DNA from: a virus
Lineage: Duplodnaviria; Heunggongvirae; Uroviricota; Caudoviricetes
Length of the DNA: 48,034 nt
Virus record (IMG/VR): IMGVR_UViG_3300029079_000001
Reading direction: 5' to 3' (one strand)
This document shows positions 1 through 27,996 of this stretch, one piece after another. The notes under the pieces are model-generated. The model was not told the origin of the DNA and did not search any database. It saw only the letters and a program-made list of their open reading frames with translations. The position numbers and the translations under genes were made by a program. Every line of letters starts with the position of its first letter. Within the stretch, counting starts at the first letter, position 1.

Positions 1-1
1 C

Positions 2-2329
2 CGGCCGTCGGATAAGGTGTGGACCTATAACCGCAGTAATGTGGTGATGCCGGATGATGGCGCGCCGTTCCGCTACAGTTTCAGCGCCCTGAAGGACCGC
101 CATAATGCCGTTGAGGTGAACTGGATTGACCCGAACAACGGCTGGGAGACGGCGACAGAGCTTGTTGAAGATACGCAGGCCATTGCCCGTTACGGTCGTA
201 ACGTCACGAAGATGGACGCCTTTGGCTGTACCAGCCGGGGGCAGGCACACCGCGCCGGGCTGTGGCTGATTAAAACAGAACTGCTGGAAACGCAGACCGT
301 GGATTTCAGCGTCGGCGCAGAAGGGCTTCGCCATGTACCGGGCGATGTTATTGAAATCTGTGATGATGACTATGCCGGTATCAGCACCGGTGGTCGTGTG
401 CTGGCGGTGAACAGCCAGACCCGGACGCTGACGCTCGACCGTGAAATCACGCTGCCATCCTCCGGTACCACGCTGATAAGCCTGGTTGACGGAAGTGGCA
501 ATCCGGTCAGCGTGGAGGTTCAGTCCGTCACCGACGGCGTGAAGGTAAAAGTGAGCCGTGTTCCTGACGGTGTTGCTGAATACAGCGTATGGGGGCTGAA
601 GCTGCCGACGCTGCGCCAGCGACTGTTCCGCTGCGTGAGTATCCGTGAGAACGACGACGGCACGTATGCCATCACCGCCGTGCAGCATGTGCCGGAAAAA
701 GAGGCCATCGTGGATAACGGGGCGCACTTTGACGGCGAACAGAGCGGCACGGTGAATGGTGTCACGCCGCCAGCGGTGCAGCACCTGACCGCAGAAGTCA
801 CTGCAGACAGCGGGGAATATCAGGTGCTGGCGCGATGGGACACACCGAAGGTGGTGAAGGGCGTGAGCTTCCTGCTCCGTCTGACCGTAACAGCGGACGA
901 CGGCAGTGAGCGGCTGGTCAGCACGGCCCGGACGACGGAAACCACATACCGCTTCACGCAACTGGCGCTGGGGAACTACAGGCTGACAGTCCGGGCGGTA
1001 AATGCGTGGGGGCAGCAGGGAGATCCGGCGTCGGTATCGTTCCGGATTGCCGCACCGGCAGCACCGTCGCGGATTGAGCTGACGCCGGGCTATTTTCAGA
1101 TAACCGCAACGCCGCATCTTGCCGTTTATGATCCGACGGTACAGTTTGAGTTCTGGTTCTCGGAAAAGCGGATTACGGATATCAGGCAGGTTGAAACCAG
1201 CGCACGTTATCTTGGTACGGCGCTGTACTGGATAGCCGCCAGTATCAATATCAAGCCGGGCCATGATTATTATTTTTACATCCGCAGTGTGAACACCGTT
1301 GGCAAATCGGCATTCGTGGAGGCTGTCGGTCGGGCGAGCGATGATGCAGAAGGTTACCTGGATTTTTTCAAAGGCCAGATAACCAAATCCCATCTCGGCA
1401 AGGAGCTGCTGGAAAAAGTCGACCTGACGGAGGATAACGCCAGCAGACTGGATGAGTTTTCGAAAGAGTGGAAAGACGCCAACGATAAATGGAATGCCAT
1501 GTGGGGCGTCAAAATTGAGCAGACCAAAGACGGCAAACATTATGTCGCGGGGCTTGGCCTCAGCATGGAGGATACGGAGGAAGGCAAACTGAGTCAGTTC
1601 CTGGTTGCCGCTAACCGTATCGCGTTTATTGACCCGGCAAACGGGAATGAAACGCCGATGTTTGTGGCGCAGGGCAACCAGATATTCATGAACGAAGTGT
1701 TTCTGAAGTATCTGACGGCTCCCACCATTACCAGCGGCGGTAATCCTCCGGCATTTTCCCTGACACCGGACGGGCGGCTGACCGCTAAAAATGCGGATAT
1801 CAGCGGTAACGTGAATGCGAACTCAGGAACGCTCAACAATGTCACGATTAACCAGAACTGTACGATTAAGGGCATGCTGGAGGCGACCCAGGTCAGAGGG
1901 GATTTCGTTAAAGCTGTATCAAAAGCCTTCCCGAAAAAAGTCGGTACGTGGGGTAACACGGAAACACCAAACGGTACGGTTACAGTCACCATCAGCGATG
2001 ATCATAACTTTGACCGCCAGATTATTATTCCGCCCATTATCTTTAACGGAATAGCGTATGACGATCCGGGGAGCGGAAATAACCCAGGAGGCACGCGATA
2101 CACGGGTTATGGTTTTGAAGTTCGCAAAAACGGCGTATTAATCGCATCCAGAGAAACTAAAGGGGCCATTCCCGGTAGTTACAGTGCAGTTATTGATATG
2201 CCTAGTGGTGGTGGTAGCGTCACTCTGGAGTTTAAGGTTTTCCAGAAAGGCAATCAGGGGGCAGGCAATATCACCGACTGTACGGTGATTGTGACCAAAA
2301 AAGCGGCTTCCGGCATCAGTATTCGTTGA
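2..2329 (+). CDS. J: Tail tip / host-specificity protein J, C-terminal ~770 aa; the 5' part of the same gene is at 46843..48034 (circular permutation)
   Basis: Open frame runs from the window start; product continues the ORF at the window end across the 108-bp terminal overlap; contains fibronectin-III-like repeats and lies in lambda gene order after I. Confidence 0.85.
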
Positions 2330-3057: not shown

Positions 3058-5439
3058 GTGGATATGGCAGCAGTAAAAATCTCAGGTGTGCTGAAAGATG
3101 GTGCGGGAAAACCAATACAGAACTGCACTATTCAACTGAAGGCAAAGCGTAACAGCACCACGGTACTGGTGAACACGGTTGCCTCTGAAAATCCTGATGA
3201 AGCCGGGCGTTACAGTATGGACGTTGAGTATGGTCAGTACAGCGTCATCCTGTGGATTGAGGGTTCTCAGCCATCACATGTTGGGACCATTACCGTCTAT
3301 GAAGGTTCCAGTCCGGGGACGCTGAATGATTTTCTCGGTGCCATGACGGAAGATGATGTCATGCCGGAGGCATTGCGCCGTTTTCAGGAAATGGTGGAAG
3401 AAGCGGCACGCAACGCCGAAGCCGCTTCTCAGAGCGCAGCGGCGGCAAAGAAATCCGAAACTGCAGCGGCATCATCGAAGAACGCGGCGAAAACCTCAGA
3501 AACGAATGCAGCTAACAGCGCACAGGCGGCAGCGACCTCACAGACTGCATCGGCAAACTCCGCGACAGCAGCTAAAAAATCAGAAACCAACGCGAAAAAT
3601 AGCGAGACAGCCGCAAAGACGAGCGAAACCAACGCAAAGTCCAGCCAGACGGCAGCGAAGACCAGCGAAACGAATGCCAAAGCCAGTGAAACTGCGGCGA
3701 AAAACAGCCAGGATGCAGCGGCCCAAAGCGAGAGTGACGCAGCTGGTTCTGCAAGTGCGGCGGCTTCTTCTGCCACTGCATCAGCCAACAGTCAAAAAGC
3801 TGCAAAAACCAGCGAAACCAACGCAAAGTCCAGCCAGACGGCAGCGAAAACCAGCGAAACGAATGCCAAAGCCAGTGAAACTGCGGCGAAAAGCAGTCAG
3901 GATGCAGCAGCCGAAAGCGAGAGTGCTGCAGCTGGCTCTGCAAGCGCGGCGGCTGCTTCTGCCACTGCATCAGCCAACAGTCAAAAAGCAGCAAAAACCA
4001 GTGAAACCAATGCAAAGACAAGCGAGACTGCAGCGGCGAACTCGGCGAAAGCATCGGCAGCAAGCCAGACAGCAGCTAAAGCAAGTGAAGACGCAGCCAG
4101 AGAGTATGCAAGTCAGGCAGCAGAGCCGTATAAATATGTCTTACAGCCGCTGCCTGATGTGTGGATACCATTTAACGATTCGCTGGATATGATTACGGGC
4201 TTTTCGCCATCATATAAAAAAATTGTTATTGGTGACGATGAAATAACGATGCCTGGCGACAAGATTGTTAAGTTTAAACGTGCATCGAAAGCAACCTATA
4301 TTAACAAATCTGGTGTGCTGACAGAGGCTGCCATTGACGAGCCACGATTTGAACGTGATGGTCTGCTTATTGAGGGGCAAAGAACAAACTACATGCTCAA
4401 TTCGGAAAGCCCTGCCAGTTGGGGGCGATCGTCAAATATGGATGTGCCCGAAACAGGGACGGATAATTTTGGTTTTACCTATGGAAAGTTTGTCTGCAAC
4501 GATTCTCTGATTGGGCAAACCTCAGCCATTAATATGGCATCAATTGCTGCAACAAAGTCAGTTGATGTCTCAGGCGATAATAAATACGTGACAACCTCAT
4601 GTCGTTTTAAAACAGAACTGCAGGTAAGGTTGCGTATCCGGTTTGATAAATATGACGGTAGCGCAACAACTTTTCTTGGTGATGCGTATATTGATACACA
4701 AACGCTTGAAATTAATATGACAGGCGGTGCTGCCTCAAGGATTACAGCGAGAGTCAGAAAGGACGAAGCTACCGGATGGATTTTTGCAGAGGCAACAATT
4801 CAGGCAATTGATGGGGAGTTAAAAATAGGTTCTCAGATACAGTATTCTCCTAAGCAGGGCGGGGCAACCGTATCTGGTGACTATATTTATCTGGCCACCC
4901 CACAAGTAGAAAATGGGCCTTGTGTATCATCTTTTATTATATCAGGAACGACGGCGGCGACCCGCGCAAGCGATATAGTTACAGTTCCCATTAAGAATAA
5001 TCTTTATAATCTTCCTTTTACGGTTCTTTGTGAGGTACATAAGAACTGGTATAAAACGCCAAATGCAGCGCCGCGTGTTTTTGATACCGGCGGTCATCAA
5101 ACCGGAGCGGCTATTATTCTTGGCTTCGGTTCTTCAGCAGATTACGACGGATTTCCTTATTGCGATATTGGAGGAGCTAACAGACGGGTAAACGAAAACG
5201 CATCGCTTGAAAAAATGGTTATGGGGATGCGTGTAAAGTCAGATCAGTCTACGTGCTCAGTAAGTAACGGGCGTATATCCAGCGAAACAAAAACCACATG
5301 GTCCTGTATTCAGAACACCGCAATTATCCGTATTGGAGGCCAGACTACAGCCGGGTTACGTCATTTATTTGGTCATGTCAGGAATTTCAGAATATGGCAC
5401 AAGGCATTGACTGATGCTCAGGTGGGGGAGTCAATCTAA
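3058..5439 (+). CDS. stf: Side tail fiber protein (lambda Stf-like N-terminus, divergent AT-rich C-terminal receptor-binding part)
   Basis: N-terminus ...AAVKISGVLKDGAGKPIQNCTIQLKAKRNSTT... resembles lambda Stf; Ala/Ser/Thr-rich KTSETNAK repeat region; likely true start ATG at 3064. Confidence 0.8.
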   Translation: MDMAAVKISGVLKDGAGKPIQNCTIQLKAKRNSTTVLVNTVASENPDEAGRYSMDVEYGQYSVILWIEGSQPSHVGTITVYEGSSPGTLNDFLGAMTEDDVMPEALRRFQEMVEEAARNAEAASQSAAAAKKSETAAASSKNAAKTSETNAANSAQAAATSQTASANSATAAKKSETNAKNSETAAKTSETNAKSSQTAAKTSETNAKASETAAKNSQDAAAQSESDAAGSASAAASSATASANSQKAAKTSETNAKSSQTAAKTSETNAKASETAAKSSQDAAAESESAAAGSASAAAASATASANSQKAAKTSETNAKTSETAAANSAKASAASQTAAKASEDAAREYASQAAEPYKYVLQPLPDVWIPFNDSLDMITGFSPSYKKIVIGDDEITMPGDKIVKFKRASKATYINKSGVLTEAAIDEPRFERDGLLIEGQRTNYMLNSESPASWGRSSNMDVPETGTDNFGFTYGKFVCNDSLIGQTSAINMASIAATKSVDVSGDNKYVTTSCRFKTELQVRLRIRFDKYDGSATTFLGDAYIDTQTLEINMTGGAASRITARVRKDEATGWIFAEATIQAIDGELKIGSQIQYSPKQGGATVSGDYIYLATPQVENGPCVSSFIISGTTAATRASDIVTVPIKNNLYNLPFTVLCEVHKNWYKTPNAAPRVFDTGGHQTGAAIILGFGSSADYDGFPYCDIGGANRRVNENASLEKMVMGMRVKSDQSTCSVSNGRISSETKTTWSCIQNTAIIRIGGQTTAGLRHLFGHVRNFRIWHKALTDAQVGESI
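3622..3999 (+). repeat. Two tandem copies of a 189-bp (63-codon) unit inside stf
   Basis: AGCGAAACCAACGCAAAGTCCAGCCAGACGGCAGCGAAG... recurs at 3622 and 3811 with few mismatches. Confidence 0.8.
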
Positions 5440-5720
5440 TGAAAGATTTAACACTCAAATTTGCCGACAGGGCCGACTTTTCGGCCTTTATGGAGAGTAT
5501 TGGCTATTATGATGACGAGTCGATGCAGGATGATATTCTTATTGACGTGATAGGTAACGTGTACAAAGAAACCGGAGAACTTACTGAAGATGGCGAGCCG
5601 GTATGTGTTAAGGAAGACGGATATTTTGTAAACGTGCGCATCATTAATGATGCAAAAAAATCGTCAATATTCGATGAATACGTGGTTGCTGTTGAGCATC
5701 AACTTCGTGGCTGGATGTGA
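5439..5720 (+). CDS. Hypothetical protein (93 aa), tail-fiber associated by position
   Basis: ATG overlaps the stf stop (ATGA coupling); acidic product with no recognised motif. Confidence 0.5.
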   Translation: MKDLTLKFADRADFSAFMESIGYYDDESMQDDILIDVIGNVYKETGELTEDGEPVCVKEDGYFVNVRIINDAKKSSIFDEYVVAVEHQLRGWM

Positions 5721-7240: not shown

Positions 7241-7270
7241 ATATCCCCTGCAATGCAGGGGATATTTCTT
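7241..7270. terminator. Hairpin between convergent genes (membrane ORF on + and sopB on -), probable bidirectional terminator
   Basis: ATATCCCCTGCA / TGCAGGGGATAT inverted repeat with T-rich flank. Confidence 0.55.
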
Positions 7271-8234
7271 AATTATCAGTAGATTGTTCCTCTAGTAACA
7301 ACTCAATTCTGCTTAGTATTTCTTTAGATATTTTTCGGCTATCAATTTTTATAGTTACAAAATTACCTTTATATCTAGCCGTGATCCCTTCCCCATATTT
7401 TTTCTCGTCTTTTGTTTTTTCCTCGTCGCCAACCAGAACAGAGTCAGATAATATTTGTATAATCCGTGAAGCTTCTAAATCCTCGCCGTTTTTTTTAATT
7501 GCCAGAAGATGATGAGCAGCATTGCTCATGGCAGCCATGTTTTTTTTGTAGACCTTAAACAAAGAATCTCCAGCACGAGCTGACAGTTCTCCTGGATGAT
7601 TGAAGATAGCTAATATATCTTTTGGTAGACCAGCTGTATTAATACAGCGAGTGATAATATTTCTGTCTATATTTTCAGCCTCGGCTAATGCTTTAACGTT
7701 ACCATCAAAGTCATTTAGCTTGCGTAAGTATCTCTTTCCTCTTTCGTATGCACTAATAGGCCTATAATCGTTACCAATTTGGGATAACCAATGCATCTGT
7801 TCATCGTCGAGATCACCTATTAAGACGCGATAGTCACATCCTGTTAATATCGCTGCTTTTCTTCTACGTGAGCCGTCAGCGACTTCAACGATTCCAGACA
7901 CTTTTCTGGCGAAAGCTGGATTTTGTTGTCCAGACGTTAGAAAAGATGGGATTAAATCGGCTAGAGAGGATTCATTTAATAAATCTTGATCGCGTTCATT
8001 ACCTAGCCATACCATTGTTGCCATTTCAACTTTATCTGCGGGAATTGTCTCTAACTTAAAGTTAACATTACGTCCGCATACTGGCAAAGTTATGCTGTTA
8101 CCGGTTAATGAACTCAGTTGACGTTTTAAATCACCAACCATAGGTGATACGGGCTGATGTTCAGGGGCATGATGATTATTACTCATAATGCGATTAATAT
8201 CTGGAGCATTTTTTAGAAGAGAGCGCTGTTTCAT
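7269..8234 (-). CDS. sopB: Partition protein SopB (ParB-type centromere-binding protein)
   Basis: 321 aa; ParB-like motif ...GSRRRKAAILTGCDYRVLIGDLDDEQ...; translationally coupled downstream of sopA. Confidence 0.8.
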   Translation of the reverse strand: MKQRSLLKNAPDINRIMSNNHHAPEHQPVSPMVGDLKRQLSSLTGNSITLPVCGRNVNFKLETIPADKVEMATMVWLGNERDQDLLNESSLADLIPSFLTSGQQNPAFARKVSGIVEVADGSRRRKAAILTGCDYRVLIGDLDDEQMHWLSQIGNDYRPISAYERGKRYLRKLNDFDGNVKALAEAENIDRNIITRCINTAGLPKDILAIFNHPGELSARAGDSLFKVYKKNMAAMSNAAHHLLAIKKNGEDLEASRIIQILSDSVLVGDEEKTKDEKKYGEGITARYKGNFVTIKIDSRKISKEILSRIELLLEEQSTDN

Positions 8235-9400
8235 TATTCGTTCTCCCAGCGAGGTTTTATTAGATCATCAAAAATTTCTCGGCAAACAGGGTCCCATATA
8301 GAAACAGCATTTCTCCATGCATTCAATGTTGAACGTTGGTTTGCTGCTTGTTCAAATACTGTTCTCATTTTTATCTGGCCTTTACCTACTTCATCGGTAA
8401 CGCGTACAACCTGACGTAATACCATTGATCCCCATGTATTTCTTATTTGTTCTTCCATCCATCGTGATTGATTCCCTGTAGTGAGACTATATTTAGTCAG
8501 AAGTAAGCGAACGGTTGGCTCAAATCCACCTAGGTCAACGCTTTCCAATAGATCGAGAAGCATTGTGAAAAACTGTAGAACAGAAGCGTAATCAAATAAT
8601 TCTGCAGGTGTAGCAACAACAATAACGTCAGCGGCACAAACAACGTTAATGGTTCCTGTACCGAGGTTCGGAGCACTATCTATAACGATAACATCGTAGT
8701 TATCCCAAACTGATTCAATAGCTGCGCGCAGCATAAGGTGTGGAGGATGAGGCAATTTACCCTGAGCATGATATTGCATGAGATCTGTTTCTATACGATG
8801 TAAAGCTAGGCAGCTAGGGATAATGTCTAGCCCAGGCCAACATGTTGGCTTTATAGCATATTCAGCGTTATCGCGTTCTCCTAAGTAAAATGGCAGTAAA
8901 GTATCCTCGGCATGGATATGTAAATCAGGAACATAACCGTGATACATAGAGGCCGTGCCTTGAGGATCGTTACCTTCAACCAAAAGAACACGATGACCTT
9001 GTAATGCTAACCATTGAGCTTGATGTACCGCAGACGATGTTTTATAAACGCCGCCTTTGTGTGACATAACGGCAAGCACAACAGGGTTTTTATCTTGTGG
9101 TCGTTGGTTTGGGTTGCCAAAAACTGCTCGCATACTGTTGATTTGATCTATGGTATAACCAGCACGACGTTCAATTCTTCCTCTCATTTCAAAGTCAGGT
9201 GCAGGTAAACGCCCGCTCTTCTCAGCATCTCTAATTGCTTGAGGAGTTACACCAATTAAATCTGCTACTTCAGTTATACCCCATCGGCGGGTGATACGCC
9301 GAGCTTCAGGACTATCATCACCGAATTGAGCGATTGCAATTGCTTGGGTCATTTCTTGACCTCTCGTAACACAATCTTGCAATAACTTTTTCAAAGACAT
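8234..9400 (-). CDS. sopA: Partition ATPase SopA (ParA/Walker-type, F SopA-like)
   Basis: 388 aa; deviant Walker A MSHKGGVYKTS; extensive similarity to recalled F-plasmid SopA (HTH ...AIAIAQFGDDSPEARRITRRW...). Confidence 0.9.
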   Translation of the reverse strand: MSLKKLLQDCVTRGQEMTQAIAIAQFGDDSPEARRITRRWGITEVADLIGVTPQAIRDAEKSGRLPAPDFEMRGRIERRAGYTIDQINSMRAVFGNPNQRPQDKNPVVLAVMSHKGGVYKTSSAVHQAQWLALQGHRVLLVEGNDPQGTASMYHGYVPDLHIHAEDTLLPFYLGERDNAEYAIKPTCWPGLDIIPSCLALHRIETDLMQYHAQGKLPHPPHLMLRAAIESVWDNYDVIVIDSAPNLGTGTINVVCAADVIVVATPAELFDYASVLQFFTMLLDLLESVDLGGFEPTVRLLLTKYSLTTGNQSRWMEEQIRNTWGSMVLRQVVRVTDEVGKGQIKMRTVFEQAANQRSTLNAWRNAVSIWDPVCREIFDDLIKPRWENE

Positions 9401-9421
9401 ACTGTCATCTCCAGCTTGTAA

Positions 9422-9499
9422 CTTTGCTTAATAATTAAATCTTTGCTTATTTCTAGCAAATTTGCATGAAAAAGGCAAAGCAAAACGAAAAACGCAAAG
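9422..9499. promoter_or_regulatory. sopAB promoter/operator region with CTTTGC/GCAAAG repeats
   Basis: CTTTGC at 9422 and 9441; GCAAA(G) at 9456, 9475, 9494; the F sopAB operator carries CTTTGC repeats bound by SopA. Confidence 0.55.
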
Positions 9500-9687
9500 G
9501 TGAATATTTGAGCTAAATCATCTTTTGTTCCCCTCCCGAAATGCATAAAACGAACAACGATATAATCATAACTAATTGATATTTATTATCTTTTTAAAGA
9601 AAGGAAATCATGTAAAACTAGGGAAACATGATAAGAATCATCAATGAGATACGTTTTCTCTATTAGTTCTCCCAATCTTACCAATAC

Positions 9688-9833
9688 GAGAACATAAACA
9701 GAGAACATAAAAATCAAGTAATGATACAAACACAATAAAGAACATAAATAAAGAATTAAAACCAATGCTAAATAAAGCAGTACATAATATGAGAACATTA
9801 CACCAAATGAGAACATTAATCAAGAACACAACG
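9688..9833. repeat. Six direct (A/G)AGAACA(T/C) iterons left of the telomere palindrome; probable protelomerase/regulatory binding sites (tos-like)
   Basis: GAGAACATAAAC (9688), GAGAACATAAAA (9701), AAGAACATAAAT (9738), GAGAACATTACA (9791), GAGAACATTAAT (9809), AAGAACACAACG (9822); inverted ATGTTCT copy about 9949 on the right side. Confidence 0.6.
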
Positions 9834-9835
9834 AA

Positions 9836-9877
9836 ACATAATTCCCCATTATACGCGCGTATAATGGGGAATTATGT
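9836..9877. other. telRL: Telomere resolution site (telRL-like): 42-bp perfect palindrome with central TACGCGCGTA
   Basis: ACATAATTCCCCATTATACGCGCGTATAATGGGGAATTATGT equals its own reverse complement; the 22-bp core CCATTATACGCGCGTATAATGG matches the recalled N15 telO; lies immediately upstream of telN. Confidence 0.8.
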
Positions 9878-10047
9878 CCTGATTTTTAGAACAAAGTCAA
9901 GGAACAAATTTAAACGTTCCGATATTGTGTTTTTGTTTATTATCCGTCATTATGTTCTGTTAGTTTGTGACTAAGTTAACGCGTTATTAGTTATCTTATT
10001 CTCAAATTGTGTTACGATAATCAGAGCTGATAATCTGGAGAGGAAAG

Positions 10048-11949
10048 ATGAGCAAAGTAAAAATCGGTGAATTAATAAACTCACTTGTTAGCGATGTTGA
10101 GTCAATAGATAACTCTGACCGTCCTCAAGGGGAAAAAACAAAAAAAATAAAGGCTGTTGCATTAAAATTTAAAAATGCATTATTTAATGACAAGCGAAAG
10201 TTTAGGGGGAAAGGATTAGAAAAAAGAATTACAGCCAACACATTCAATGCCTATATGAGCAGGGCCAGAAAACGGTTTGATGATAAACTTCATCATAGCT
10301 TTGAAAAAAATATACATCGCCTATCTGAAAAGTATCCTTTATATAATGAGGAGCTATTGTCATGGCTTTCTCTACCTGCTGCCGATATTCGCCAGAGAAT
10401 GTCAGCTTTACAGGCAAAATTAAAATTAATTCTCCCTTTATCAGAAGATTTATCTAATATCAGAATTGGTGATAACAAAAGTCATAATAAGTTATTAAAA
10501 TTATCAAATAAATATAAAGAGTGGCAATTCGCCATATCTGATTTAACTAGCGATAACTGGAAAGATAAGCGCGATTATTTATATAAATTACTACAGCAAG
10601 GATCTGCCTTACTTGAGGAGTTGAATCAGCTAAAAGTTAACCATGAGATTCTCTATCATCTTCAACTAAGCCCTGCCGAACGCGCATCTATCCAGCAACG
10701 ATGGGCGGACGTTCTGCACAATAAGAAACGTAACGTGGTGGTCATTGATTACCCTAAATATATGCAAGCTATTTACGATATTATAAATAGCCCTGCTACA
10801 TTAAATAATCTAAACACTCGTTCAGGTATGGCTCCTTTGGCATTTGCACTTGCAGCATTGTCAGGAAGACGAATGATTGAGATTATGTATCAAGGTACAT
10901 TTACTGTTTCTGGTAAGTATACCGTTGATTTTTTAGGCCAAGCAAAAAAAAGAACTTCTGATGATATAACCAGAAAAATATATACATTATGCGAAGCAAA
11001 AACATTTGTTTATTTAATAAATGTACTTCGCTCATGCCCAGCAGCATCTGATTTTGATGATGTCGTTAAAGGTTATGGAGATAACGACACACGCTCTGAA
11101 AACGGACGGATTAATGCCATATTAGCAAAGGCTTTTAACCCGTGGGTTAAATCATTTTTCAAAGATGACCGCCGTGTTTATAAAGATAGTCGTGCTATTT
11201 ATGCCCGTATTGCGTATGAAATGTTTTTCCGCGTAGATCCTCGTTGGAAAAACGTAGATGAGGATGTTTTCTTTATGGAAATTTTAGGCCATGACGATGA
11301 AAACACTCAATTACACTATAAGCAATTCAAGCTGGCCAACTTCTCAAAGACATGGAGGCCAAATACTGGAAACGAAAATACCAGGCTGGAAGCATTGCAG
11401 CAGCTTGATGACGAAATGCCAGGATTCGCCAGAGGAGATGCCGGGGTTCGTCTGCATAACACAGTTAAGCAGCTGGTAGAGCAGGACCCCTCTATAAAAA
11501 TCACGAACAGCACTCTAAGAGCATTCAAATTTAGCCCTACAATGATTAGTCGATACCTGGAATTTGCTGCTGATGCTCTGGGGCAATTTGTTGGCGAAAA
11601 TGGACAATGGCAGCTGAAAATAGATTCTCCAGAAATCGTTATGCCTGACGAAGAAGAGCTGGAAGCAATACCTGAACAGACGGATGAATTATCAGAGGAT
11701 GACGATCTGGATGACGACGAAATTGAGATAGAGGAAGAGGAAGAGGAAGAGGAAGAGAGCGTAGAAGAACAGCAACCGCCCGCGCCTTCTTCACCTGTAT
11801 CTAAGCCGGTATTTAAGCCCGTGAGAAATATTGGTGATGGCTCATACGTTGTTGAGTTTCATTATAATGGCCAGAATTATGCTTGGTCCGGCATTGCAAA
11901 CAGCCCTATATCAGCAATGCAGTTAGCATGGCTGACATATTTCGGATAA
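10048..11949 (+). CDS. telN: Protelomerase TelN (telomere resolvase)
   Basis: 633 aa; N15 TelN-like sequence throughout with an acidic EEEEEEE C-terminal region; directly adjacent to the palindromic target. Confidence 0.9.
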   Translation: MSKVKIGELINSLVSDVESIDNSDRPQGEKTKKIKAVALKFKNALFNDKRKFRGKGLEKRITANTFNAYMSRARKRFDDKLHHSFEKNIHRLSEKYPLYNEELLSWLSLPAADIRQRMSALQAKLKLILPLSEDLSNIRIGDNKSHNKLLKLSNKYKEWQFAISDLTSDNWKDKRDYLYKLLQQGSALLEELNQLKVNHEILYHLQLSPAERASIQQRWADVLHNKKRNVVVIDYPKYMQAIYDIINSPATLNNLNTRSGMAPLAFALAALSGRRMIEIMYQGTFTVSGKYTVDFLGQAKKRTSDDITRKIYTLCEAKTFVYLINVLRSCPAASDFDDVVKGYGDNDTRSENGRINAILAKAFNPWVKSFFKDDRRVYKDSRAIYARIAYEMFFRVDPRWKNVDEDVFFMEILGHDDENTQLHYKQFKLANFSKTWRPNTGNENTRLEALQQLDDEMPGFARGDAGVRLHNTVKQLVEQDPSIKITNSTLRAFKFSPTMISRYLEFAADALGQFVGENGQWQLKIDSPEIVMPDEEELEAIPEQTDELSEDDDLDDDEIEIEEEEEEEEESVEEQQPPAPSSPVSKPVFKPVRNIGDGSYVVEFHYNGQNYAWSGIANSPISAMQLAWLTYFG

Positions 11950-12550: not shown

Positions 12551-12711
12551 GGTATGCACTCCGTTTAATTGGTCGTGCTACCACCAGAGTTCCTACGCTC
12601 TATATGGCGGTAGCCCAGACGGGGGTAGGAATACCGGTAAACGAAGAAACCGGCCAGCTAAAAGCTGCCCCATCTGAGCCACCATAAATTTGGTGTACGC
12701 AGATTTTACAC

Positions 12712-12736
12712 ACAAAAAAACACGCTGGCGCGTGTT
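12712..12736 (-). terminator. Intrinsic terminator inside the leader of the antirepressor-like operon
   Basis: On the minus strand AACACGC-GCCA-GCGTGTT followed by TTTTTTT. Confidence 0.7.
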
Positions 12737-12739
12737 GTG

Positions 12740-12900
12740 CGCTTCATTTACTCGGGTTCCTACGCCCGGCTACGGGATTTACCGTAGCAGAGTAAACTTT
12801 ACCGTCAAAACGACGCGCACGTCAATAATTTGCAAAGACATTTTACCCCGTGACCAGTCACGGGGACAGGTGTTTTTATAATTTGCTTGAACGAGTGATC
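12740..12900 (-). ncRNA. Candidate leader/small regulatory RNA region (N15 CA / P4 CI RNA-like control of the antirepressor operon)
   Basis: No ORF; 9-bp-stem hairpin CCCCGTGAC/GTCACGGGG at 12846..12865; lies upstream of the terminator; the 10-mer GTTCCTACGC occurs twice (12589, 12756) with a partially complementary GGTAGGAAT at 12624. Confidence 0.35.
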
Positions 12901-13970: not shown

Positions 13971-14162
13971 TTACTCCCCGTTCACCGAAAATTCACGATA
14001 GAAACGTTTCCACATACGATAAGTCTGCGCAAATTGTTCACCACGAAACATCGCCTTCCTGGCCTTCATGTTTTCCTTGTGAGACTTTCGGTCTATGAAC
14101 CAAAACCATTGATGGAACACACAAAGCAAGAGACACAAAGATAATATCCAATCATTACCCAT
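13971..14162 (-). CDS. Small membrane protein (63 aa), translationally coupled to the repA stop
   Basis: ATG at 14162 overlaps the repA stop; TM segment WILSLCLLLCVFHQWFWFI; the ORF track gives a longer 13971..14279 frame. Confidence 0.5.
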   Translation of the reverse strand: MGNDWILSLCLLLCVFHQWFWFIDRKSHKENMKARKAMFRGEQFAQTYRMWKRFYREFSVNGE

Positions 14163-17100
14163 AGAAAGCGCCCTGCTCTTCGTAGCTGCATGAGCTATTC
14201 CCCGTAATGTATTCACGTAACCGCCGCAGCTCATTGCTGGAAAGGTGATCCATGAACTCTGTGAGGTACAGGGATGCAAACGTCATAGCTATGCTGGCTG
14301 ATGACCATGATGACATAGTGGCCAACTCCTCACTGGAAAGCGCACTCATCGCCCAGGACTCAGGTACAGCCACTGGCAACACGGCCAAAGCCTCAGAAAT
14401 TACTGAATGAGGGGCGTTTTGAACCTGCTCGTTTGTGGATCGCGTTTTATCATCCATATATATATTGAGATCCAAATCGCGATCCATTTCGATGGCTGTC
14501 TTCTCGGCTTTACGCGTTTTTAGGGTTAGGCCATCTTTCTGACGCTGAACAAGAATATCCAGCATAAATGCCGCTGATTCAGGCTCAACAAAACGCAAGG
14601 TTGGACGCTTATCGCCGTCTCTGCCGCGACGTTTACCTGTTTTAAGGCCAAGAGAGTCGCAAATGTTTTTAAACAACGCTTCCGGCACTTTAGGCTTCCC
14701 TTTTGGCGTCATAAAACCACCAATGTGCAGAACGTTATTCAACAGGTCACGGCGTTCGGCTGTCATGAGGTTATCTCGAGCGAATTTGAGACGCTCCTGA
14801 GTCGCCTCGCCGGTCATAGTCTCAGGGTTGATACCGCAGTCGATAAAGTACTGCCGGAGAGTTGCTGATTTAAGCGCATAGAAACCGCGCGCCCCGACTT
14901 CAACAGTAGGAGTAGCTTTTACCTTGTGATCGATTATTCCAGGGAATTTAGTTTTAAAGACATCATCAGCCTGCTCGCGAGTCATCGCGGTCACTACAAA
15001 ATATTGCCACTGTCCCGCCTGACGGTATGCGTAGGTAAAATTGATGGCTGCTTCTTCCCGGTCGTAACGACGAGCTGTTACCTCATCTAAAAGCATTGTT
15101 TCATAGCGGCGAACTTTGTCTCGAGCACCATCGAAATAGAATTTCAGCGTGCCTTCTTCAACCGGTAGTTTCAGTTCGTTTTCAATATCCCAGCGGACAA
15201 GTTTTGCCTGTTCTTCAAGCGTCAGCGCGCGTTTTTTTAGCAGTTCTTCACGCTCTGATTCTTGTGGAGTTTCTGTATTGAGGTGCAGATCCAGTGTCTG
15301 TTCCCACACAATATCCCGCGCTTCTTTACGCAGATCTTTACCGATATCATTCGCAGCATAATCGGTGGCCAGCGGTGATACCTTATAACCGTCGCTGTGC
15401 ATGATGCAGATCATGTTGCTGGCGTAGTCGTTACGCGCAGTCGCTTCAATTGCGGCTGCTTTAATTTTCATCCTGGTAAAGTCGGTATTGGCCACCCCCA
15501 TTGATATACGGTCGCCATCGAAAACGACATCCGTCAGTTCACCGTTCATACCTGCGGTAGCAAGCAATGCCTGGGCGAATGCTCGTTCTATTTTTTGCGG
15601 GTCAGTTTCTCGTTTTGCACGAGCTTTATCAAAGCCGATAATAAATTCTTTTGCTGTACGGTCGCGGCGTAGCATTTGCACTGCGTCGCTGGGTACAACT
15701 TCACCACAGAACATGCCGAAATGACGGTCAAAATGTTTTTGCTCAATCGACACGCCGGATGAAATAGACGGGCTATAAATCAGGCCGTCGTATTTTTTGA
15801 CCATCTTTTTCGGTTGATTGGTAAATGCTTCAACTTCTGGCTCTGGTTTGTTTTTCTGGTTTACACACAGAAATTTCTTACCAGGAAAATGCATTCTCAG
15901 GGTGGCTGTCACATCTTCTGCAAAGGTGGAGCTGTCGGTGGCCAACATGATTTTTTCGCCATCCGATACAGCTTTCACCACCTCGGTCATGATGCGATCT
16001 TTTTCTGTATAAAAAACCCGGATTGGCTCACCTGTTTCGCGGTTGCGAACATCAACAGGTAATTCAATTACGTGGATCTGCAGCCATGCCGGTAAACCTA
16101 GTTCTTCACGGCGTTTCATAGCCAGTTCAGCCAGGTCAACCAGTAGATCGTTCGCATCAGCATCCACCATGATTGGGTGTTGTTCCGTTCTGGCCAGCGC
16201 GTCAATTAGCGTATTGAATACAGCAACCGGGTTTTCCATAGCCCGACCGGAAAGAACGGCACGTAGCCCTTGCGTGGCCTCGTCAAAGCCAAAATAGTCG
16301 TGCTGGCGCATCAACGGTTGCCAGCAGTTTTTAACAATCGAGTTTATGCAGATGGTCAGTTTACTGGCGTATGGAGCAATTTCCTGATAGCCAGGGTCCT
16401 GATAGTGCAGGATATCGGCTTTTACACCTTTTCCTTCTGTCATCATTTCCCACAGGCCACCAATAAGGGAGACACGGTGAGCAACAGAGATACCACGTTC
16501 TGAGCTATGCATTAACGGTCGTAACAATCCAGTAGATTTGCCGGAACCCATACCAGCACGGACGATGACTATCCCCTGTAGTGATTGCACGTACTTCAGG
16601 ACATCATCGGTCATTACCGAAGTTTCAAAACGCTTATAGGTGATATGTTGAGGGCGTTTATTGGGATCAGTTATGCGTTCGCTGAAAGAGCGCGGAGCCT
16701 GGGCAATACGGCACTTTTTATTCAGGCGACGGGCAATGTGGTCTTTTACCGTAGCACGATAGATATTTTCCAGTCCCATTTCACGCAGAACGATGCAGAA
16801 CATGTTAAATAAATCTGACGGACTGTTAGGAACCGGGCAGGTTAGCATGCCAATATCCACCGCTCTCAGCAGCTCTTTGGCAAAAGTACGACGGTTATCC
16901 CGCTTAATTGTCTTCAGGCGGTTGAGCGTCAGAGATAGCAAATCAGTACCGGTTTTCAGGCGGTTTGCTGTTGCAAATAGTTGACGTGCTGTTTCACGAA
17001 GTCCACGTAGTTTGTGCAGGTCGTTGAAGTCACTGCACTCCATTTGCGGATCGTCTTCAAAAGTTGGATAGACGCAGCGGACATCGTTGAATTTCGATAA

Positions 17101-18150
17101 GATTTCATAGCCAGTCCGCAGGCCGGTATTCCCTTTTCCTTCTGTGGCAGATTTCCGGTCATTATCCAGTGCGCAGGTGATTTTTGCCGCCGGGTACATG
17201 TTTACCAGTTGTTCCACAACATGAACCATGTTGTTAGCGGATACAGCGACAACCACAGCGTCAAAGCGTTTATCTTTTTTCGTGGCAAGCCAGATGGATG
17301 CACCAGTAGCAAAACCTTCTGTAACAGCGATGTTTTGCGCCCCTTTCAGCTCACCGATAACAAAGCAGGCACCGACGAAATCGCCGCTGGTTACTGCGCT
17401 GGTCTGGTATTTCCCACCTTGTTTGTCGATTCGCTGCCAACCCACAATACGACCATCATAACGACCGTCCAGGTGAGCCAGAGGGATAGCCATATATGTG
17501 GTTGGCCCCCGGCTCCATTTCGCACTGTCGTGACTGGTCACGCGACGCACATCACATGAACTAAAAACGTCACGAATACCTTTTTTAATCGCATATGGCC
17601 ATGAGCCGTCTTCAGCCTGAGCATGTTCCCACGCGCTGTGGAATGCCAGCCATCCCAGCAAACGTTCATGGTCCATTTGGTTGTTTTTCAGGTCATTAAT
17701 TCGTTTTTGTTCTTCACGGCGACGACGTGCTTCGGCCTGACGTTCTATTCTTTCCCGTTCTTCTTCCGGTTGTGCGACCACGGTCGCATTATTCCGTTGT
17801 TGCTCACGGCGATATTCAGAAAACAGGAAGGAGAAACCGCTCCATGAGCCAGCATCGCTGCCTTTATGGACGAAGTTAATGAACGGGTAATCAATCCCTT
17901 TGCTGTGTTCCAGCCTGGAGTAAATTTCTACGCGTCCTTTCAGGCTCTTTTCGAGAGCTTCTGGAGATGTTTTATTGTATGAAGAGTAACGCTCAACCCC
18001 CCCGCGAGGGTTGAGTTGGATGTTGTCGGAACAGGCAGACCAGTTGATACCAGCCATCTGTGCCAGCTCGGTTAGTTCATCCCGTGCTGCTTCAATTAGC
18101 GAGAACGGATCGCTGCCAAAGCGATCCGCATAGAAATCGTTTAATGTCAT
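14155..18150 (-). CDS. repA: Replication protein RepA (multidomain primase-helicase, N15 RepA-like)
   Basis: 1331 aa; Walker A GMGSGKST in the helicase part; position and size match N15 repA; sopC-like palindrome #1 lies inside it at 17771..17788. Confidence 0.85.
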   Translation of the reverse strand: MTLNDFYADRFGSDPFSLIEAARDELTELAQMAGINWSACSDNIQLNPRGGVERYSSYNKTSPEALEKSLKGRVEIYSRLEHSKGIDYPFINFVHKGSDAGSWSGFSFLFSEYRREQQRNNATVVAQPEEERERIERQAEARRRREEQKRINDLKNNQMDHERLLGWLAFHSAWEHAQAEDGSWPYAIKKGIRDVFSSCDVRRVTSHDSAKWSRGPTTYMAIPLAHLDGRYDGRIVGWQRIDKQGGKYQTSAVTSGDFVGACFVIGELKGAQNIAVTEGFATGASIWLATKKDKRFDAVVVAVSANNMVHVVEQLVNMYPAAKITCALDNDRKSATEGKGNTGLRTGYEILSKFNDVRCVYPTFEDDPQMECSDFNDLHKLRGLRETARQLFATANRLKTGTDLLSLTLNRLKTIKRDNRRTFAKELLRAVDIGMLTCPVPNSPSDLFNMFCIVLREMGLENIYRATVKDHIARRLNKKCRIAQAPRSFSERITDPNKRPQHITYKRFETSVMTDDVLKYVQSLQGIVIVRAGMGSGKSTGLLRPLMHSSERGISVAHRVSLIGGLWEMMTEGKGVKADILHYQDPGYQEIAPYASKLTICINSIVKNCWQPLMRQHDYFGFDEATQGLRAVLSGRAMENPVAVFNTLIDALARTEQHPIMVDADANDLLVDLAELAMKRREELGLPAWLQIHVIELPVDVRNRETGEPIRVFYTEKDRIMTEVVKAVSDGEKIMLATDSSTFAEDVTATLRMHFPGKKFLCVNQKNKPEPEVEAFTNQPKKMVKKYDGLIYSPSISSGVSIEQKHFDRHFGMFCGEVVPSDAVQMLRRDRTAKEFIIGFDKARAKRETDPQKIERAFAQALLATAGMNGELTDVVFDGDRISMGVANTDFTRMKIKAAAIEATARNDYASNMICIMHSDGYKVSPLATDYAANDIGKDLRKEARDIVWEQTLDLHLNTETPQESEREELLKKRALTLEEQAKLVRWDIENELKLPVEEGTLKFYFDGARDKVRRYETMLLDEVTARRYDREEAAINFTYAYRQAGQWQYFVVTAMTREQADDVFKTKFPGIIDHKVKATPTVEVGARGFYALKSATLRQYFIDCGINPETMTGEATQERLKFARDNLMTAERRDLLNNVLHIGGFMTPKGKPKVPEALFKNICDSLGLKTGKRRGRDGDKRPTLRFVEPESAAFMLDILVQRQKDGLTLKTRKAEKTAIEMDRDLDLNIYMDDKTRSTNEQVQNAPHSVISEALAVLPVAVPESWAMSALSSEELATMSSWSSASIAMTFASLYLTEFMDHLSSNELRRLREYITGNSSCSYEEQGAFYG
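17771..17788. repeat. sopC-like centromere palindrome #1 (inside repA)
   Basis: TGTGCGACCACGGTCGCA. Confidence 0.6.
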
Positions 18151-24568: not shown

Positions 24569-24796
24569 ATGAATATTAATGAAATTCGTGGAAATATGAC
24601 TGAAGCGGCCCTGAGTGTGGAATGTGTTATGCGTGGATACCCACGCATTTCCCTGAAAGAGTTAAGCGAAGCCTGTTTTTTGAGTCAAGTTGCCGTTGAA
24701 TTTATCATCGAACAGATGATCTGTTTTGGGGTTGCAAAGCGTAGTGGATCTGGTCGATATTCTTTGACCGATGAATATAAGCAGGCAACTTTCTAA
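24569..24796 (+). CDS. Hypothetical protein (75 aa)
   Basis: ORF; followed by sopC-like site #3 and terminator hairpins. Confidence 0.45.
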   Translation: MNINEIRGNMTEAALSVECVMRGYPRISLKELSEACFLSQVAVEFIIEQMICFGVAKRSGSGRYSLTDEYKQATF

Positions 24797-24800
24797 AAAC

Positions 24801-24818
24801 TGTGCGACCACGGTCGCA
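24801..24818. repeat. sopC-like centromere palindrome #3
   Basis: GTGCGACCACGGTCGCAC (intergenic). Confidence 0.6.
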
Positions 24819-24904
24819 CAGCACAAAAACGAAAAAGCTTGGCAAAATGACGGTTTTTAGTTATTGTTTTGTTAAGTTGGGTTTTTTGTACCCAACAGCC
24901 AACA

Positions 24905-27596: not shown

Positions 27597-27923
27597 ATGA
27601 AAATTTATATTTCCGGACCAATGACGGGATATGAGAATTTTAATCGTGACGCCTTTAATAAAGAGGCTGAGCGTTTATCACGTCATGCTCACGTAGTCCT
27701 GAACCCGGCGATTTTTCCTAATGGCCTGACACAACGTGCACACATGGAGATTTGCTTTGCAATGCTTCGCTGTGCTGATGCTATTTTGATGCTTCCTGGC
27801 TGGAAAACATCTGCCGGAGCCACTGCGGATTACCATTACGCATACAAGATGGGGATGCCGGTATTCACTACGCTGAATTATCCGCCAGCTTGTTCCTCGT
27901 GTGCGACCGTGGTCGCACGCTAA
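27597..27923 (+). CDS. DUF4406-like protein (nucleoside 2-deoxyribosyltransferase-like fold)
   Basis: MKIYISGPMTG... N-terminal signature; sopC-like site #4 lies in its last codons. Confidence 0.55.
   Translation: MKIYISGPMTGYENFNRDAFNKEAERLSRHAHVVLNPAIFPNGLTQRAHMEICFAMLRCADAILMLPGWKTSAGATADYHYAYKMGMPVFTTLNYPPACSSCATVVAR
27901..27918. repeat. sopC-like centromere palindrome #4
   Basis: GTGCGACCGTGGTCGCAC. Confidence 0.6.
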
Positions 27924-27928
27924 ATTCC

Positions 27929-27996
27929 GCGCTGCATCGTCGCCGTATTCCCGCATTAACTATGACCGTAGCCCGACGGGGAACTCCTCTGCGCGA
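27929..27996. repeat. Left copy of a ~68-bp direct repeat flanking the AT-rich cassette
   Basis: GCGCTGCATCGTCGCCGTATTCCCGCATTAACTATGACCGTAGCCCGACGGGGAACTCCTCTGCGCGAG; second copy at 29713..29780 with 4 mismatches. Confidence 0.8.

What the first reader, a model, noticed from the sequence alone, without database searches (positions are those of the whole stretch)
9688..9960. Telomere resolution site: 42-bp perfect palindrome with an array of GAGAACAT iterons directly upstream of telN
The 42-bp sequence at 9836..9877 is exactly self-complementary around TACGCGCGTA, and its 22-bp core matches what I recall of the N15 telO core while the palindrome arms differ. Six direct GAGAACA(T) iterons precede it and an inverted copy follows, overlapping the probable telN promoter. 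This implies that the replicon exists as a linear plasmid with covalently closed hairpin ends and that TelN may autoregulate. The divergent arms suggest a distinct protelomerase specificity.
Basis: partly seen in the sequence, partly recalled or inferred. Interest (0 to 1): 0.6.

Follow-up and report, generated by a model that had tools for sequence, protein, structure and literature searches.

The report
N15-type phage telomere resolution site
This is the cutting-and-sealing site where an N15-like E. coli phage turns its DNA into a linear plasmid with hairpin ends; the site and its flanking repeats match a well-studied system, so it is real but ordinary.

Summary
Window 9836-9877 is a perfect 42-bp palindrome, and its 22-bp centre is identical to the N15 telO core. 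It lies 191 bp upstream of an intact protelomerase gene (79% aa identity to N15 TelN, catalytic Tyr present) and opposite sopAB. This is the N15 arrangement. The "iterons" are real: 4 exact GAGAACAT plus 2 AAGAACAY plus 1 degenerate copy. They are degenerate copies of the palindrome's outer-arm motif (AGNACAYWA), all pointing toward the centre, and they align position for position with the repeats in the N15 tos region. Such repeats are described for N15 (L1/L2, R1/R2), but their function is unresolved. No hairpin was observed for this contig, which is a circular-type assembly with the site uncut. In near-identical relatives the same centre is a contig end or the axis of fold-back assemblies, and GenBank phage PhiR46_1 carries annotated telL/telR sites. 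"Distinct specificity" is not supported: the arm differences fall at positions that vary between the two half-sites of single phages, and the stirrup domain is 91% identical to N15's. TelN autoregulation is untested, although one arm-like repeat overlaps a conserved extended -10 candidate. Verdict: a new member of a known kind, of low interest.

The parts
9836..9877 (.). 42-bp perfect palindrome; the symmetric core of the telRL protelomerase target. The axis lies between 9856 and 9857.
9846..9867 (.). 22-bp telO core CCATTATACGCGCGTATAATGG, identical to N15, phiKO2 and 38 public loci
9829..9884 (.). 56-bp stretch equivalent to N15 telRL (14-bp arm + 3-bp spacer + 22-bp core + 3 + 14). The telN-side arm AATCAGGACATAAT matches N15 at 11/14. 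The sop-side outer arm CAACGAA departs from the canonical TATCAGC.
9689..9831 (+). Array of 7 co-oriented arm-like repeats AGNACAYWA (starts 9689, 9702, 9739, 9779, 9792, 9810, 9823). They are organised as four 23-bp doublet units (9688, 9738, 9778, 9809). This is the counterpart of the N15 tos left-hand repeats.
   Evidence: (D1)
9888..9907 (+). Two GAACAA copies in direct (away-from-centre) orientation just right of the palindrome. They align with N15 GAGAACATAAGCGCAGAACAA.
9924..9934 (-). Arm-like repeat ATTGTGTTTTT about 67 bp from the centre. Identical in the 6 aligned E. coli-clade relatives; arm-like copies lie at a similar distance in N15 and PY54.
9949..9959 (-). Arm-like repeat ATTATGTTCTG (10/11 to the right arm ATTATGTCCTG), about 92 bp from the centre. 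ATTATGTTCT is invariant in the window, pEC12401-3, N15 and MStein-2023a.
10006..10016 (-). Arm-like repeat ATTGTGTTACG about 150 bp from the centre. It overlaps the candidate telN extended -10.
10010..10018 (+). Candidate telN promoter, extended -10 TGtTACGAT. Inferred from conservation: identical in N15 and MStein-2023a, TGTTATGAT in phiKO2. Not mapped experimentally.
   Evidence: inference
10048..11949 (+). telN, a protelomerase of 633 aa. It has the TelK_N, muzzle, catalytic and stirrup domains. R275, K300, H415 and Y424 are invariant in the alignment with N15, phiKO2 and PY54.
8234..9400 (-). sopA (ParA-type partition ATPase), on the other side of the site as in N15
7269..8234 (-). sopB (centromere-binding protein)
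9422..9499 (.). CTTTGC / GCAAAG repeats upstream of sopA. They are probably a SopA operator of the F-plasmid type. They are not part of the tel site but they bound it.
   Evidence: (D14, I7, I22); assignment from knowledge of F sopAB

Best explanation
This is the telRL/tos locus of an N15-like (Ravinvirus-type) temperate phage that persists as a linear plasmid prophage.

Mechanism, by homology with N15 TelN and phiKO2 TelK. Two TelN monomers bind the two half-sites of the palindrome. Each cleaves one strand a few bp from the axis (9856/9857) through Tyr424, and the strands are swapped and resealed. This gives two covalently closed hairpins. telL starts at 9857 and carries telN. telR ends at 9856 and carries the repeat array and sopAB. 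After replication, the duplicated telLL and telRR palindromes are resolved in the same way.

The 'iterons' are degenerate, centre-pointing copies of the outer-arm motif of the half-site (AGNACAYWA). They are orthologous to the repeats in the N15 tos region. Most likely they are low-affinity accessory TelN binding sites. They would keep TelN concentrated on the sub-telomeric DNA, for end protection and/or efficient re-resolution. On the telN side, one copy overlapping the -10 region could give negative autoregulation.

Shown here: the anatomy, the homology, the conservation, and the orientation bias.
Shown only in relatives and only indirectly: termini and fold-backs at this axis.
Inferred: cleavage chemistry, TelN binding to the repeats, and autoregulation.
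For: The palindrome and telO core are identical to N15.

TelN has four TelK Pfam domains. It matches PDB 2v6e at E = 1.9e-295. It is 79% identical to N15 TelN and 77% to phiKO2 TelK, with Y424, R275, K300 and H415 invariant.

Gene order and distances are fixed. In 38 public loci with the same core, telN starts about 190 bp from the centre and sopA about 456-520 bp.

The rest of the window is N15-like: RepA, repressor, Q-like antiterminator, terminase and a C4-type antisense RNA.

Termini in relatives. YDC107_1 is a telN-telN fold-back about this centre. pG749_3, which is 99.7% identical on the repeat side, is a sopA-sopA fold-back. Many matches in PLSDB and RefSeq break at 9836 or 9877. Of the 38 loci with the telO core, 15 end within about 50 bp of the centre and 8-10 are fold-backs. 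PhiR46_1 has annotated telL and telR sites.

Repeats. 9 of the 11 AGNACAYWA sites in the window lie in 9689-9958, with 7 on the plus strand left of the centre and 2 on the minus strand right of it. In 25 distinct sop-side flanks there are 0-7 copies pointing to the centre and none pointing away. The repeats align with N15 tos repeats. The cores are better conserved than the spacers (0.934 vs 0.84, permutation p = 0.002, 14 unique sequences). Flank repeats co-vary with the arm motif across clades: GAACAYAAT in E. coli, CATAACACAA in Klebsiella, and GTAACCCATT in PY54 against its arm GTAACCTATT. telN-side copies sit at conserved distances of about 67, 92 and 150 bp.

Literature. The N15 natural target is about 310 bp, with degenerate L1/L2 and R1/R2 copies of L3/R3. 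TelN stays bound to hairpin products and protects them from SbcCD (PMC12624138). The tos PCR primers span the whole repeat region (PMC2847241).
Against: No physical evidence exists for this contig. It is a circular-type assembly (ends overlap by 108 nt) with the site uncut. That fits virion or replicative DNA, or an assembler path through the palindrome.

No direct evidence exists that TelN binds the flanking repeats, here or in N15. The cited paper calls this 'conceivable' and reports that the C-terminal (CTD1/stirrup) domain is not essential for end protection.

The sop-side outer arm (CAACGAA) departs from the canonical TATCAGC. So the N15 definition of a symmetric 56-bp site is only partly met.

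The sop-side repeat zone is the least conserved part of the intergenic region among relatives (0.825, against 0.91-0.97 for its neighbours).

The simple scan found no plus-strand promoter consensus.
Confidence: 0.85

Rival explanations
1. The palindrome is the tel site, but the flanking repeats are not TelN sites. They would bind another factor (a host nucleoid protein, SopA/SopB or another phage protein), or act as promoter-like or curved A-rich DNA for sopAB and telN expression.
For: No TelN binding to such repeats has been demonstrated, and the CTD1/stirrup domain is dispensable for end protection. The repeat consensus (A)CATAAT resembles a -10 hexamer. The scan finds two minus-strand promoter-like sites in this zone, at 9900-9871 and 9813-9784. 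The region is only 26% GC and A-rich on one strand.
Against: The repeats resemble the half-site arm itself: 10/11 for the 9949-9959 copy. They always point toward the axis, on both sides and in every clade. Their sequence changes together with the arm sequence in Klebsiella and Yersinia phages. The SopA-operator-like CTTTGC repeats are a separate cluster at 9422-9499. The number of promoter-like hits is below the shuffle expectation (2 found against a mean of 3.1).
Confidence: 0.2
2. The repeats are non-functional debris. Sub-telomeric DNA next to a hairpin end may repeatedly duplicate and decay copies of the arm motif, for example through aberrant resolution or recombination between telLL/telRR intermediates. 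That would leave degenerate copies with the same polarity.
For: The sop-side repeat zone is the most variable part of the intergenic region. Copy number varies from 0 to 7 among phages with the same core. Individual copies decay in some lineages: AGATCGTAA, AGAATTAAA, TAAATATTA. T/C toggling at the Y position is frequent.
Against: The cores are significantly better conserved than the spacers. The telN-side copies are invariant among E. coli relatives and sit at conserved distances even in PY54, whose protelomerase is only 41% identical. Several copies are positionally conserved between N15 and this window despite about 77% flank identity.
Confidence: 0.15
3. The palindrome is just an intrinsic bidirectional terminator or cruciform between two genes, and the replicon is an ordinary circular plasmid or integrated prophage.
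For: The terminator scan reports it as a stem followed by a T-run on both strands. The contig assembles as a circle, and 8 PLSDB records of relatives are deposited as circular with the junction intact.
Against: sopA and telN are transcribed divergently away from it, so there is nothing to terminate. The core is base-for-base the N15 telO. An intact protelomerase sits 191 bp away. Relatives break or fold back exactly at the axis. An assembler can join R-flank, palindrome and L-flank even when only hairpin ends exist, so a circular deposit does not show a circular molecule.
Confidence: 0.03

Closest known systems
Phage N15 telRL / tos (telomerase occupancy site) with TelN (NC_001901, repeat_region 24775-24830)
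   Same: The 22-bp telO core is identical. The 14+3+22+3+14 layout is the same. The order sopB-sopA-site-telN is the same, and the centre-to-ATG distance is 197 bp in N15 against 191 bp here. Flanking GAACAY-type repeats align position for position. The ATTATGTTCT and ATTGTGTTACGATA blocks upstream of telN are conserved. TelN is 79% identical, with the stirrup domain at 91%.
   Different: The perfect palindrome is 42 bp here and 22 bp in N15. The 3-bp spacer is TCC on both sides (N15 has TGC and AGT). The arm core is ACATAAT rather than ACACAAT. The sop-side outer arm is degenerate (CAACGAA against TATCAGC). There are more strict-consensus repeats on the sop side (7 against 2 for AGNACAYWA; 6 against 6 for GAACAY).
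Escherichia phage PhiR46_1 (PV340565), phage YDC107_1 (CP025712) and about 30 E. coli / E. albertii / Shigella 'plasmids' in PLSDB
   Same: They belong to the same clade. telN DNA is 96-99% identical. The core and telN-side flank are the same. PhiR46_1 has annotated telL and telR sites. Several records are fold-backs or end at this axis.
   Different: No identical record was found. The best full-length match to the 501-bp region is 98%. The sop-side repeat zone falls into groups at >=99%, about 90% and about 77% identity. The G-to-C change at 9878 in the telN-side arm is seen in no other locus.
phiKO2 TelK / telRL (crystal structure 2V6E) and related Klebsiella phages
   Same: The telO core and overall architecture are the same, and TelK is 77% identical. 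The flanks again carry centre-pointing copies of an arm-derived motif, with telK-side copies about 94 and 151 bp from the centre.
   Different: The repeat motif is CATAACAC(AA), not AGAACAY. The perfect palindromes are 28-54 bp.
Yersinia phage PY54 Tel / 42-bp palindrome with flanking inverted repeat
   Same: It has a 42-bp perfect palindrome centred on ACGCGCGT. Flank copies of the arm motif lie about 65 and 92 bp from the centre on the tel side. The literature describes a flanking inverted repeat of debated necessity (PMC10612081).
   Different: The core and arm sequences differ, and Tel is only 41% identical. TelN and the PY54 enzyme protect only their cognate ends (PMC12624138).

Membership tests
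N15-type protelomerase target site (telRL/tos) of linear plasmid prophages | Palindromic core containing the 22-bp telO sequence CCATTATACGCGCGTATAATGG | tested here: met
   Identical at 9846-9867. The perfect palindrome extends to 42 bp.
N15-type protelomerase target site (telRL/tos) of linear plasmid prophages | 14-bp inverted arm repeats (L3/R3) separated from the core by a 3-bp spacer | tested here: inconclusive
   The telN-side arm AATCAGGACATAAT matches N15 at 11/14. The sop-side arm CAACGAAACATAAT matches at 8/14, and only its inner 7 nt are symmetric. The same degenerate sop-side arm recurs in 6 other public loci, so it is a tolerated variant.
N15-type protelomerase target site (telRL/tos) of linear plasmid prophages | Adjacent protelomerase gene with tyrosine-recombinase/topoisomerase-IB-like catalytic residues | tested here: met
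   The ORF at 10048-11949 has the Pfam TelK_N, muzzle, catalytic and stirrup domains. It matches 2v6e at E = 1.9e-295. Y424, R275, K300 and H415 are invariant. The gene starts about 190 bp from the centre in all loci.
N15-type protelomerase target site (telRL/tos) of linear plasmid prophages | Degenerate copies of the arm motif in the flanks (tos L1/L2, R1/R2) | tested here: met
   There are 7 copies on the sop side and 3 outside the palindrome on the telN side, all pointing to the axis. They align with the N15 repeats. The feature as described in the literature comes from PMC12624138.
N15-type protelomerase target site (telRL/tos) of linear plasmid prophages | N15-like genome context (sopAB opposite, RepA primase-helicase, CB-type repressor, lambdoid packaging and tail genes) | tested here: met
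N15-type protelomerase target site (telRL/tos) of linear plasmid prophages | Covalently closed hairpin termini at the palindrome axis in lysogens | not testable with these tools
   This contig has the site uncut and overlapping ends. Support is indirect and comes only from relatives: telN-telN and sopA-sopA fold-back assemblies and contig ends at the axis.
N15-type protelomerase target site (telRL/tos) of linear plasmid prophages | Cleaving-joining of the site by the cognate enzyme in vitro or in vivo | not testable with these tools
   Needs biochemistry.
Rep-binding replication-origin iterons | Direct repeats next to the rep gene / origin | tested here: not met
   RepA is at 14155-18150, about 4.3 kb away across the tel axis. 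In the resolved linear prophage the array (telR end) and repA (telL arm) would lie on opposite arms. The repeats resemble the tel arm motif, not a separate motif.
Intrinsic (rho-independent) terminator | G+C-rich stem plus T-run at the 3' end of a transcription unit | tested here: not met
   The pattern scan flags the palindrome. However, it lies between the 5' ends of the divergent sopA and telN genes.

The most novel reading that the evidence does not exclude
The centre-pointing, arm-derived repeats may be a conserved functional layer of enterobacterial phage telomeres. In this reading an array of weak TelN sites builds a sub-telomeric nucleoprotein cap on the sop-side end. This contig has the largest such array seen (7 copies in four 23-bp doublets). 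On the telN side, the copies at fixed distances (about 67, 92 and 150 bp) would double as an operator that lets TelN sense its own occupancy and repress telN through the copy over the extended -10. This sub-clade has a degenerate sop-side outer arm. That would also imply that a 42-bp symmetric core is enough for resolution in vivo when accessory repeats are present.
Probability: 0.3. Interest if true: 0.45.

Novelty: new member of a known kind. Interest (0 to 1): 0.22.

Why it matters
It identifies the contig as an N15-type phage-plasmid whose prophage should be a linear molecule with hairpin ends. That affects how the assembly is interpreted. 'Circular plasmid' records of this clade are probably mis-closed, and the 60-90 kb 'plasmids' are probably fold-back artefacts.

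The site itself adds little. N15 TelN/tos is already a standard biotechnology tool, and a near-identical phage record carries telL/telR annotations.

The comparative data give a modest lead. Arm-like repeats always point to the axis, co-vary with the arm across three clades, and keep fixed distances on the telN side. This bears on an open but minor question: what the roughly 310-bp tos region does beyond the 56-bp telRL. It also points to specific sites for testing TelN occupancy and autoregulation.

Tried and rejected
- Primary papers: Deneke 2000 (by DOI), Aihara 2007 (PMC2041798) and Casjens 2004 (PMC355964) are not held. The N15 L1-L3/R1-R3 description is therefore second-hand, from PMC12624138.
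- Literature on telN promoter mapping or autoregulation: nothing relevant was found.
- Promoter scan: no plus-strand sigma-70 consensus lies upstream of telN. The extended -10 candidate rests only on conservation.
- Rfam: no RNA family matches in 9400-10100.
- Small ORFs across the region (9586-9816 minus strand, 9765-9974 plus strand): rejected as genes, because relatives differ by 1-bp indels there.
- Terminator reading of the palindrome: rejected on gene orientation.
- Replication-iteron reading: rejected on location and on similarity to the tel arm.
- 'Distinct specificity': rejected as unsupported.
- Helical phasing of the repeats: the spacings are 13, 37, 40, 13, 18 and 13 bp, with no simple 10.5-bp register. 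Only the recurring 13-bp doublet spacing stands out.
- The minus-strand promoter-like site at 9900-9871, with its -10 in the palindrome arm: not conserved in N15, so treated as chance.
- The large protein-database, structure-prediction and metagenome tools were not used, because the identification was unambiguous without them.

Full report
**1. The observation**

Window 9836-9877 is a 42-bp perfect palindrome with no spacer (I2). It is centred on TACGCGCGTA, with the axis between 9856 and 9857. The next-longest perfect palindrome in the 48,034-bp window is 18 bp. The top strand folds as DNA at -18 kcal/mol, z = -7.9.

- GAGAACAT occurs exactly at 9688, 9701, 9791 and 9809.
- AAGAACAT is at 9738 and AAGAACAC at 9822.
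- A degenerate CAGTACAT is at 9778.
- An inverted AGAACAT is at 9952-9958.
- Two further copies in direct orientation (AGAACAA at 9888, GGAACAA at 9901) follow the palindrome.

Six AGAACA in 148 bp was never reached in 5000 dinucleotide-preserving shuffles. The degenerate motif AGNACAYWA occurs 11 times in the whole window, and 9 of these lie in 9689-9958.

**2. The surroundings**

The ORF at 10048-11949 is a protelomerase:
- It has all four TelK Pfam domains.
- It matches the TelK structure 2v6e at E = 1.9e-295.
- It is 79% identical to N15 TelN, 77% to phiKO2 TelK and 41% to PY54 Tel. R275, K300, H415 and Y424 are invariant.

On the other side, transcribed divergently, are sopA (8234-9400) and sopB (7269-8234). 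CTTTGC/GCAAAG repeats lie at 9422-9499, as upstream of sopA in N15 and phiKO2.

The rest of the window is an N15-like genome. It has a 1331-aa RepA, a repressor, a Q-like antiterminator, terminase and tail genes, and a C4-type antisense RNA.

The window's first 108 nt repeat at its end at 97% identity. It is therefore a whole contig closed as a circle, with the tel site uncut.

**3. Comparison with known sites**

The 22-bp core CCATTATACGCGCGTATAATGG is identical to the centre of the annotated N15 cut-site repeat (NC_001901 24775-24830, cut at 24802/3). The same core is in phiKO2.

Written as 14-bp arm + 3-bp spacer + 11-bp half-core, the half-sites compare as follows:

| Half-site | Arm | Spacer |
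|---|---|---|
| N15, sop side | TATCAGCACACAAT | TGC |
| N15, telN side | TATCAGCACACAAT | AGT |
| Window, sop side | CAACGAAACATAAT | TCC |
| Window, telN side | AATCAGGACATAAT | TCC |

The differences from N15 fall where one phage's own two half-sites already differ:
- The spacer takes 9 forms across 38 loci.
- ACAC and ACAT are both present in phiKO2 and in MStein-2023a, on the left and right half-sites respectively.

One enzyme must resolve telRL, telLL and telRR, so these positions are tolerated variation. The stirrup domain, proposed to read the arm motif (PMC12624138), is 91% identical to N15's. I therefore find no support for a distinct specificity.

Two departures from N15 are real:
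- A degenerate sop-side outer arm (xAACGAA for TATCAGC), shared with 6 other public loci.
- A G-to-C change at 9878, seen in no other locus.

**4. What the 'iterons' are**

The repeat consensus AGNACAYWA is the arm motif itself. Compare the arms CAGCACAYAAT and CAGGACATAAT with the repeats GAGAACATAAA, CAGTACATAAT and AAGAACACAAC.

All 7 copies on the sop side are on the plus strand. The copies on the telN side are on the minus strand: the right arm at 9871-9881, then 9924-9934, 9949-9959 and 10006-10016. Every one of these points to the axis. The repeat finder groups the sop-side copies into four 23-bp doublets at 9688, 9738, 9778 and 9809 (D1).

An alignment with N15 and Enterobacter phage MStein-2023a places the window's repeats opposite N15's own GAACAY repeats. 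ATTATGTTCT and ATTGTGTTACGATA upstream of telN are invariant in all four sequences.

The literature supports this reading. The N15 natural target (tos) is about 310 bp, and L1/L2 and R1/R2 are degenerate copies of L3/R3. Binding of these copies by TelN's CTD1 is 'conceivable', but CTD1 is not essential for end protection (PMC12624138). The Ravin-lab tos primers span the whole repeat region (PMC2847241).

The array is therefore a known feature whose function is unresolved.

**5. Wider comparison**

I scanned public collections for the telO core and found 37 IMG/VR loci and one GTDB genome, Pseudocitrobacter.
- telN always starts about 190 bp from the centre, and sopA about 456-520 bp.
- In 25 distinct sop-side flanks, AGNACAYWA occurs 0-7 times pointing to the centre and never the other way. 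This window has the most copies.
- Among 14 unique E. coli-clade flanks, repeat cores are better conserved than spacers (0.934 vs 0.84, permutation p = 0.002). Most core variation is T/C at the Y position. The sequences are related, so this p-value is only indicative.

Across clades, the flank repeats change together with the arm:

| Clade | Flank repeat |
|---|---|
| E. coli / Enterobacter | GAACAYAAT |
| Klebsiella | CATAACACAA |
| PY54 | GTAACCCATT (its arm is GTAACCTATT) |

In these phages the ratio of centre-pointing to opposite matches was 7:1, 5:0, 7:1, 5:0, 4:0 and 5:1. telN-side copies recur about 67, 92 and 150 bp from the centre. This co-variation is the best evidence available here that the protein reading the arms also reads the repeats.

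**6. Hairpin ends**

Nothing in this contig shows hairpins. Relatives do, indirectly:
- YDC107_1 (98% identical) carries a telN-axis-telN inverted duplication.
- pG749_3 (99.7% identical on the repeat side) carries a sopA-axis-sopA duplication, with a base error at the turn.
- PLSDB and RefSeq matches break at 9836 or 9877, and many such records are 60-90 kb with 4 copies of the match.
- Of the 38 loci with the telO core, 15 end within about 50 bp of the axis, 8-10 are fold-backs and 13 are RL junctions.
- PhiR46_1 (PV340565) is deposited in prophage orientation with annotated telL and telR sites.

Records closed as circles do not argue against hairpins. An assembler can walk from the R-flank through the palindrome into the L-flank even when only hairpin ends exist.

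**7. Promoter and autoregulation**

The consensus scan finds no plus-strand promoter upstream of telN. TGtTACGAT at 10010-10018 fits an extended -10 and would place the transcript start about 20-25 nt before the ATG. It is invariant in the 6 aligned E. coli-clade sequences, identical in N15 and MStein-2023a, and reads TGTTATGAT in phiKO2.

This candidate overlaps the arm-like copy at 10006-10016. TelN repression is plausible but untested, and I found no literature on it.

**8. Verdict**

The finding is correct in substance and belongs to a well-characterised system. It is a new member of the N15 (Ravinvirus-like) tel/tos family. It has a longer perfect palindrome than N15, a degenerate sop-side outer arm and a relatively large accessory repeat array.

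Confidence by claim:
- Identity of the site: high.
- Role of the repeats as accessory TelN sites: moderate, roughly even odds.
- Autoregulation: low to moderate.

Overall interest is low.

Noticed in passing
window 12603-12689 (-) and 12715-12788 (-): Rfam gathering-level hits to C4 antisense RNA (73.6 bits) and isrK Hfq-binding RNA (62.5 bits). They lie just downstream of telN. This is probably the N15-type secondary-immunity / antirepressor control locus.
   Followed up: no
window 1-108 and 47927-48034: The two ends of the window are a 108-nt direct repeat at 97% identity. The contig is therefore a circularly closed assembly with an imperfect overlap. Both cos and telRL are internal.
   Followed up: partly
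window 9422-9499: Four CTTTGC/GCAAAG hexamers sit in inverted pairs upstream of sopA. They are conserved in relatives, in N15 and in phiKO2, and resemble the SopA operator repeats of the F plasmid. The 51-aa ORF 9391-9546 that covers them is annotated as hypothetical in PhiR46_1 and is probably spurious.
   Followed up: partly
window 3598-3975: A 189-bp tandem duplication (90% identity) lies inside the 793-aa tail/tail-fibre gene at 3058-5439.
   Followed up: no
window 27929-28002 and 29713-29786: A 74-nt direct repeat (92%) occurs 1.8 kb apart, bracketing ORFs 27901-29022 and 29147-29596. The first matches phrog_2571, of unknown function. This may be a cassette boundary or a recombination scar.
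   Followed up: no
window 7633-7648, 5638-5653, 25529-25546: Perfect palindromes of 16, 16 and 18 bp: GCTGTATTAATACAGC inside sopB, GCATCATTAATGATGC, and AGAAAAAATATTTTTTCT. The first two could be dispersed SopB centromere sites of the N15 type. This was not checked.
   Followed up: no
window 9900-9871 (-): A promoter-like site, TTGACT-18-CATAAT (10/12), has its -10 inside the right arm of the palindrome. It would read across the axis toward sopA only while telRL is uncut. It is conserved in E. coli relatives but not in N15, so it is probably chance.
   Followed up: partly
L011 (NZ_CP014491), L002 (CP025712); PLSDB/RefSeq records of 60-90 kb: Many deposited 'circular plasmids' or 'phage genomes' of this clade are fold-back mis-assemblies of a roughly 47-kb hairpin-ended molecule. 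They show inverted duplications about the tel axis and 4 copies of the flank. YDC107_1 even carries a second, frameshifted 'protelomerase' copy as a result.
   Followed up: partly
window 9688-9831 vs relatives (alignment): The Y position of the repeats toggles between lineages in a near-concerted way. The window and pG749_3 read T,T,T,T,T,T,C, whereas several relatives have C where the window has T and T at the last copy. This may reflect gene conversion among repeats or free drift at an unread position.
   Followed up: no
L054 (NZ_CALSBS010000033.1, Pseudocitrobacter vendiensis): Only one of the 185,579 GTDB species-representative genomes carries the exact telO core. It sits on a 46-kb contig with telN (80% aa identity) and sopA flanking it. 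This is an N15-like phage-plasmid in Pseudocitrobacter.
   Followed up: no
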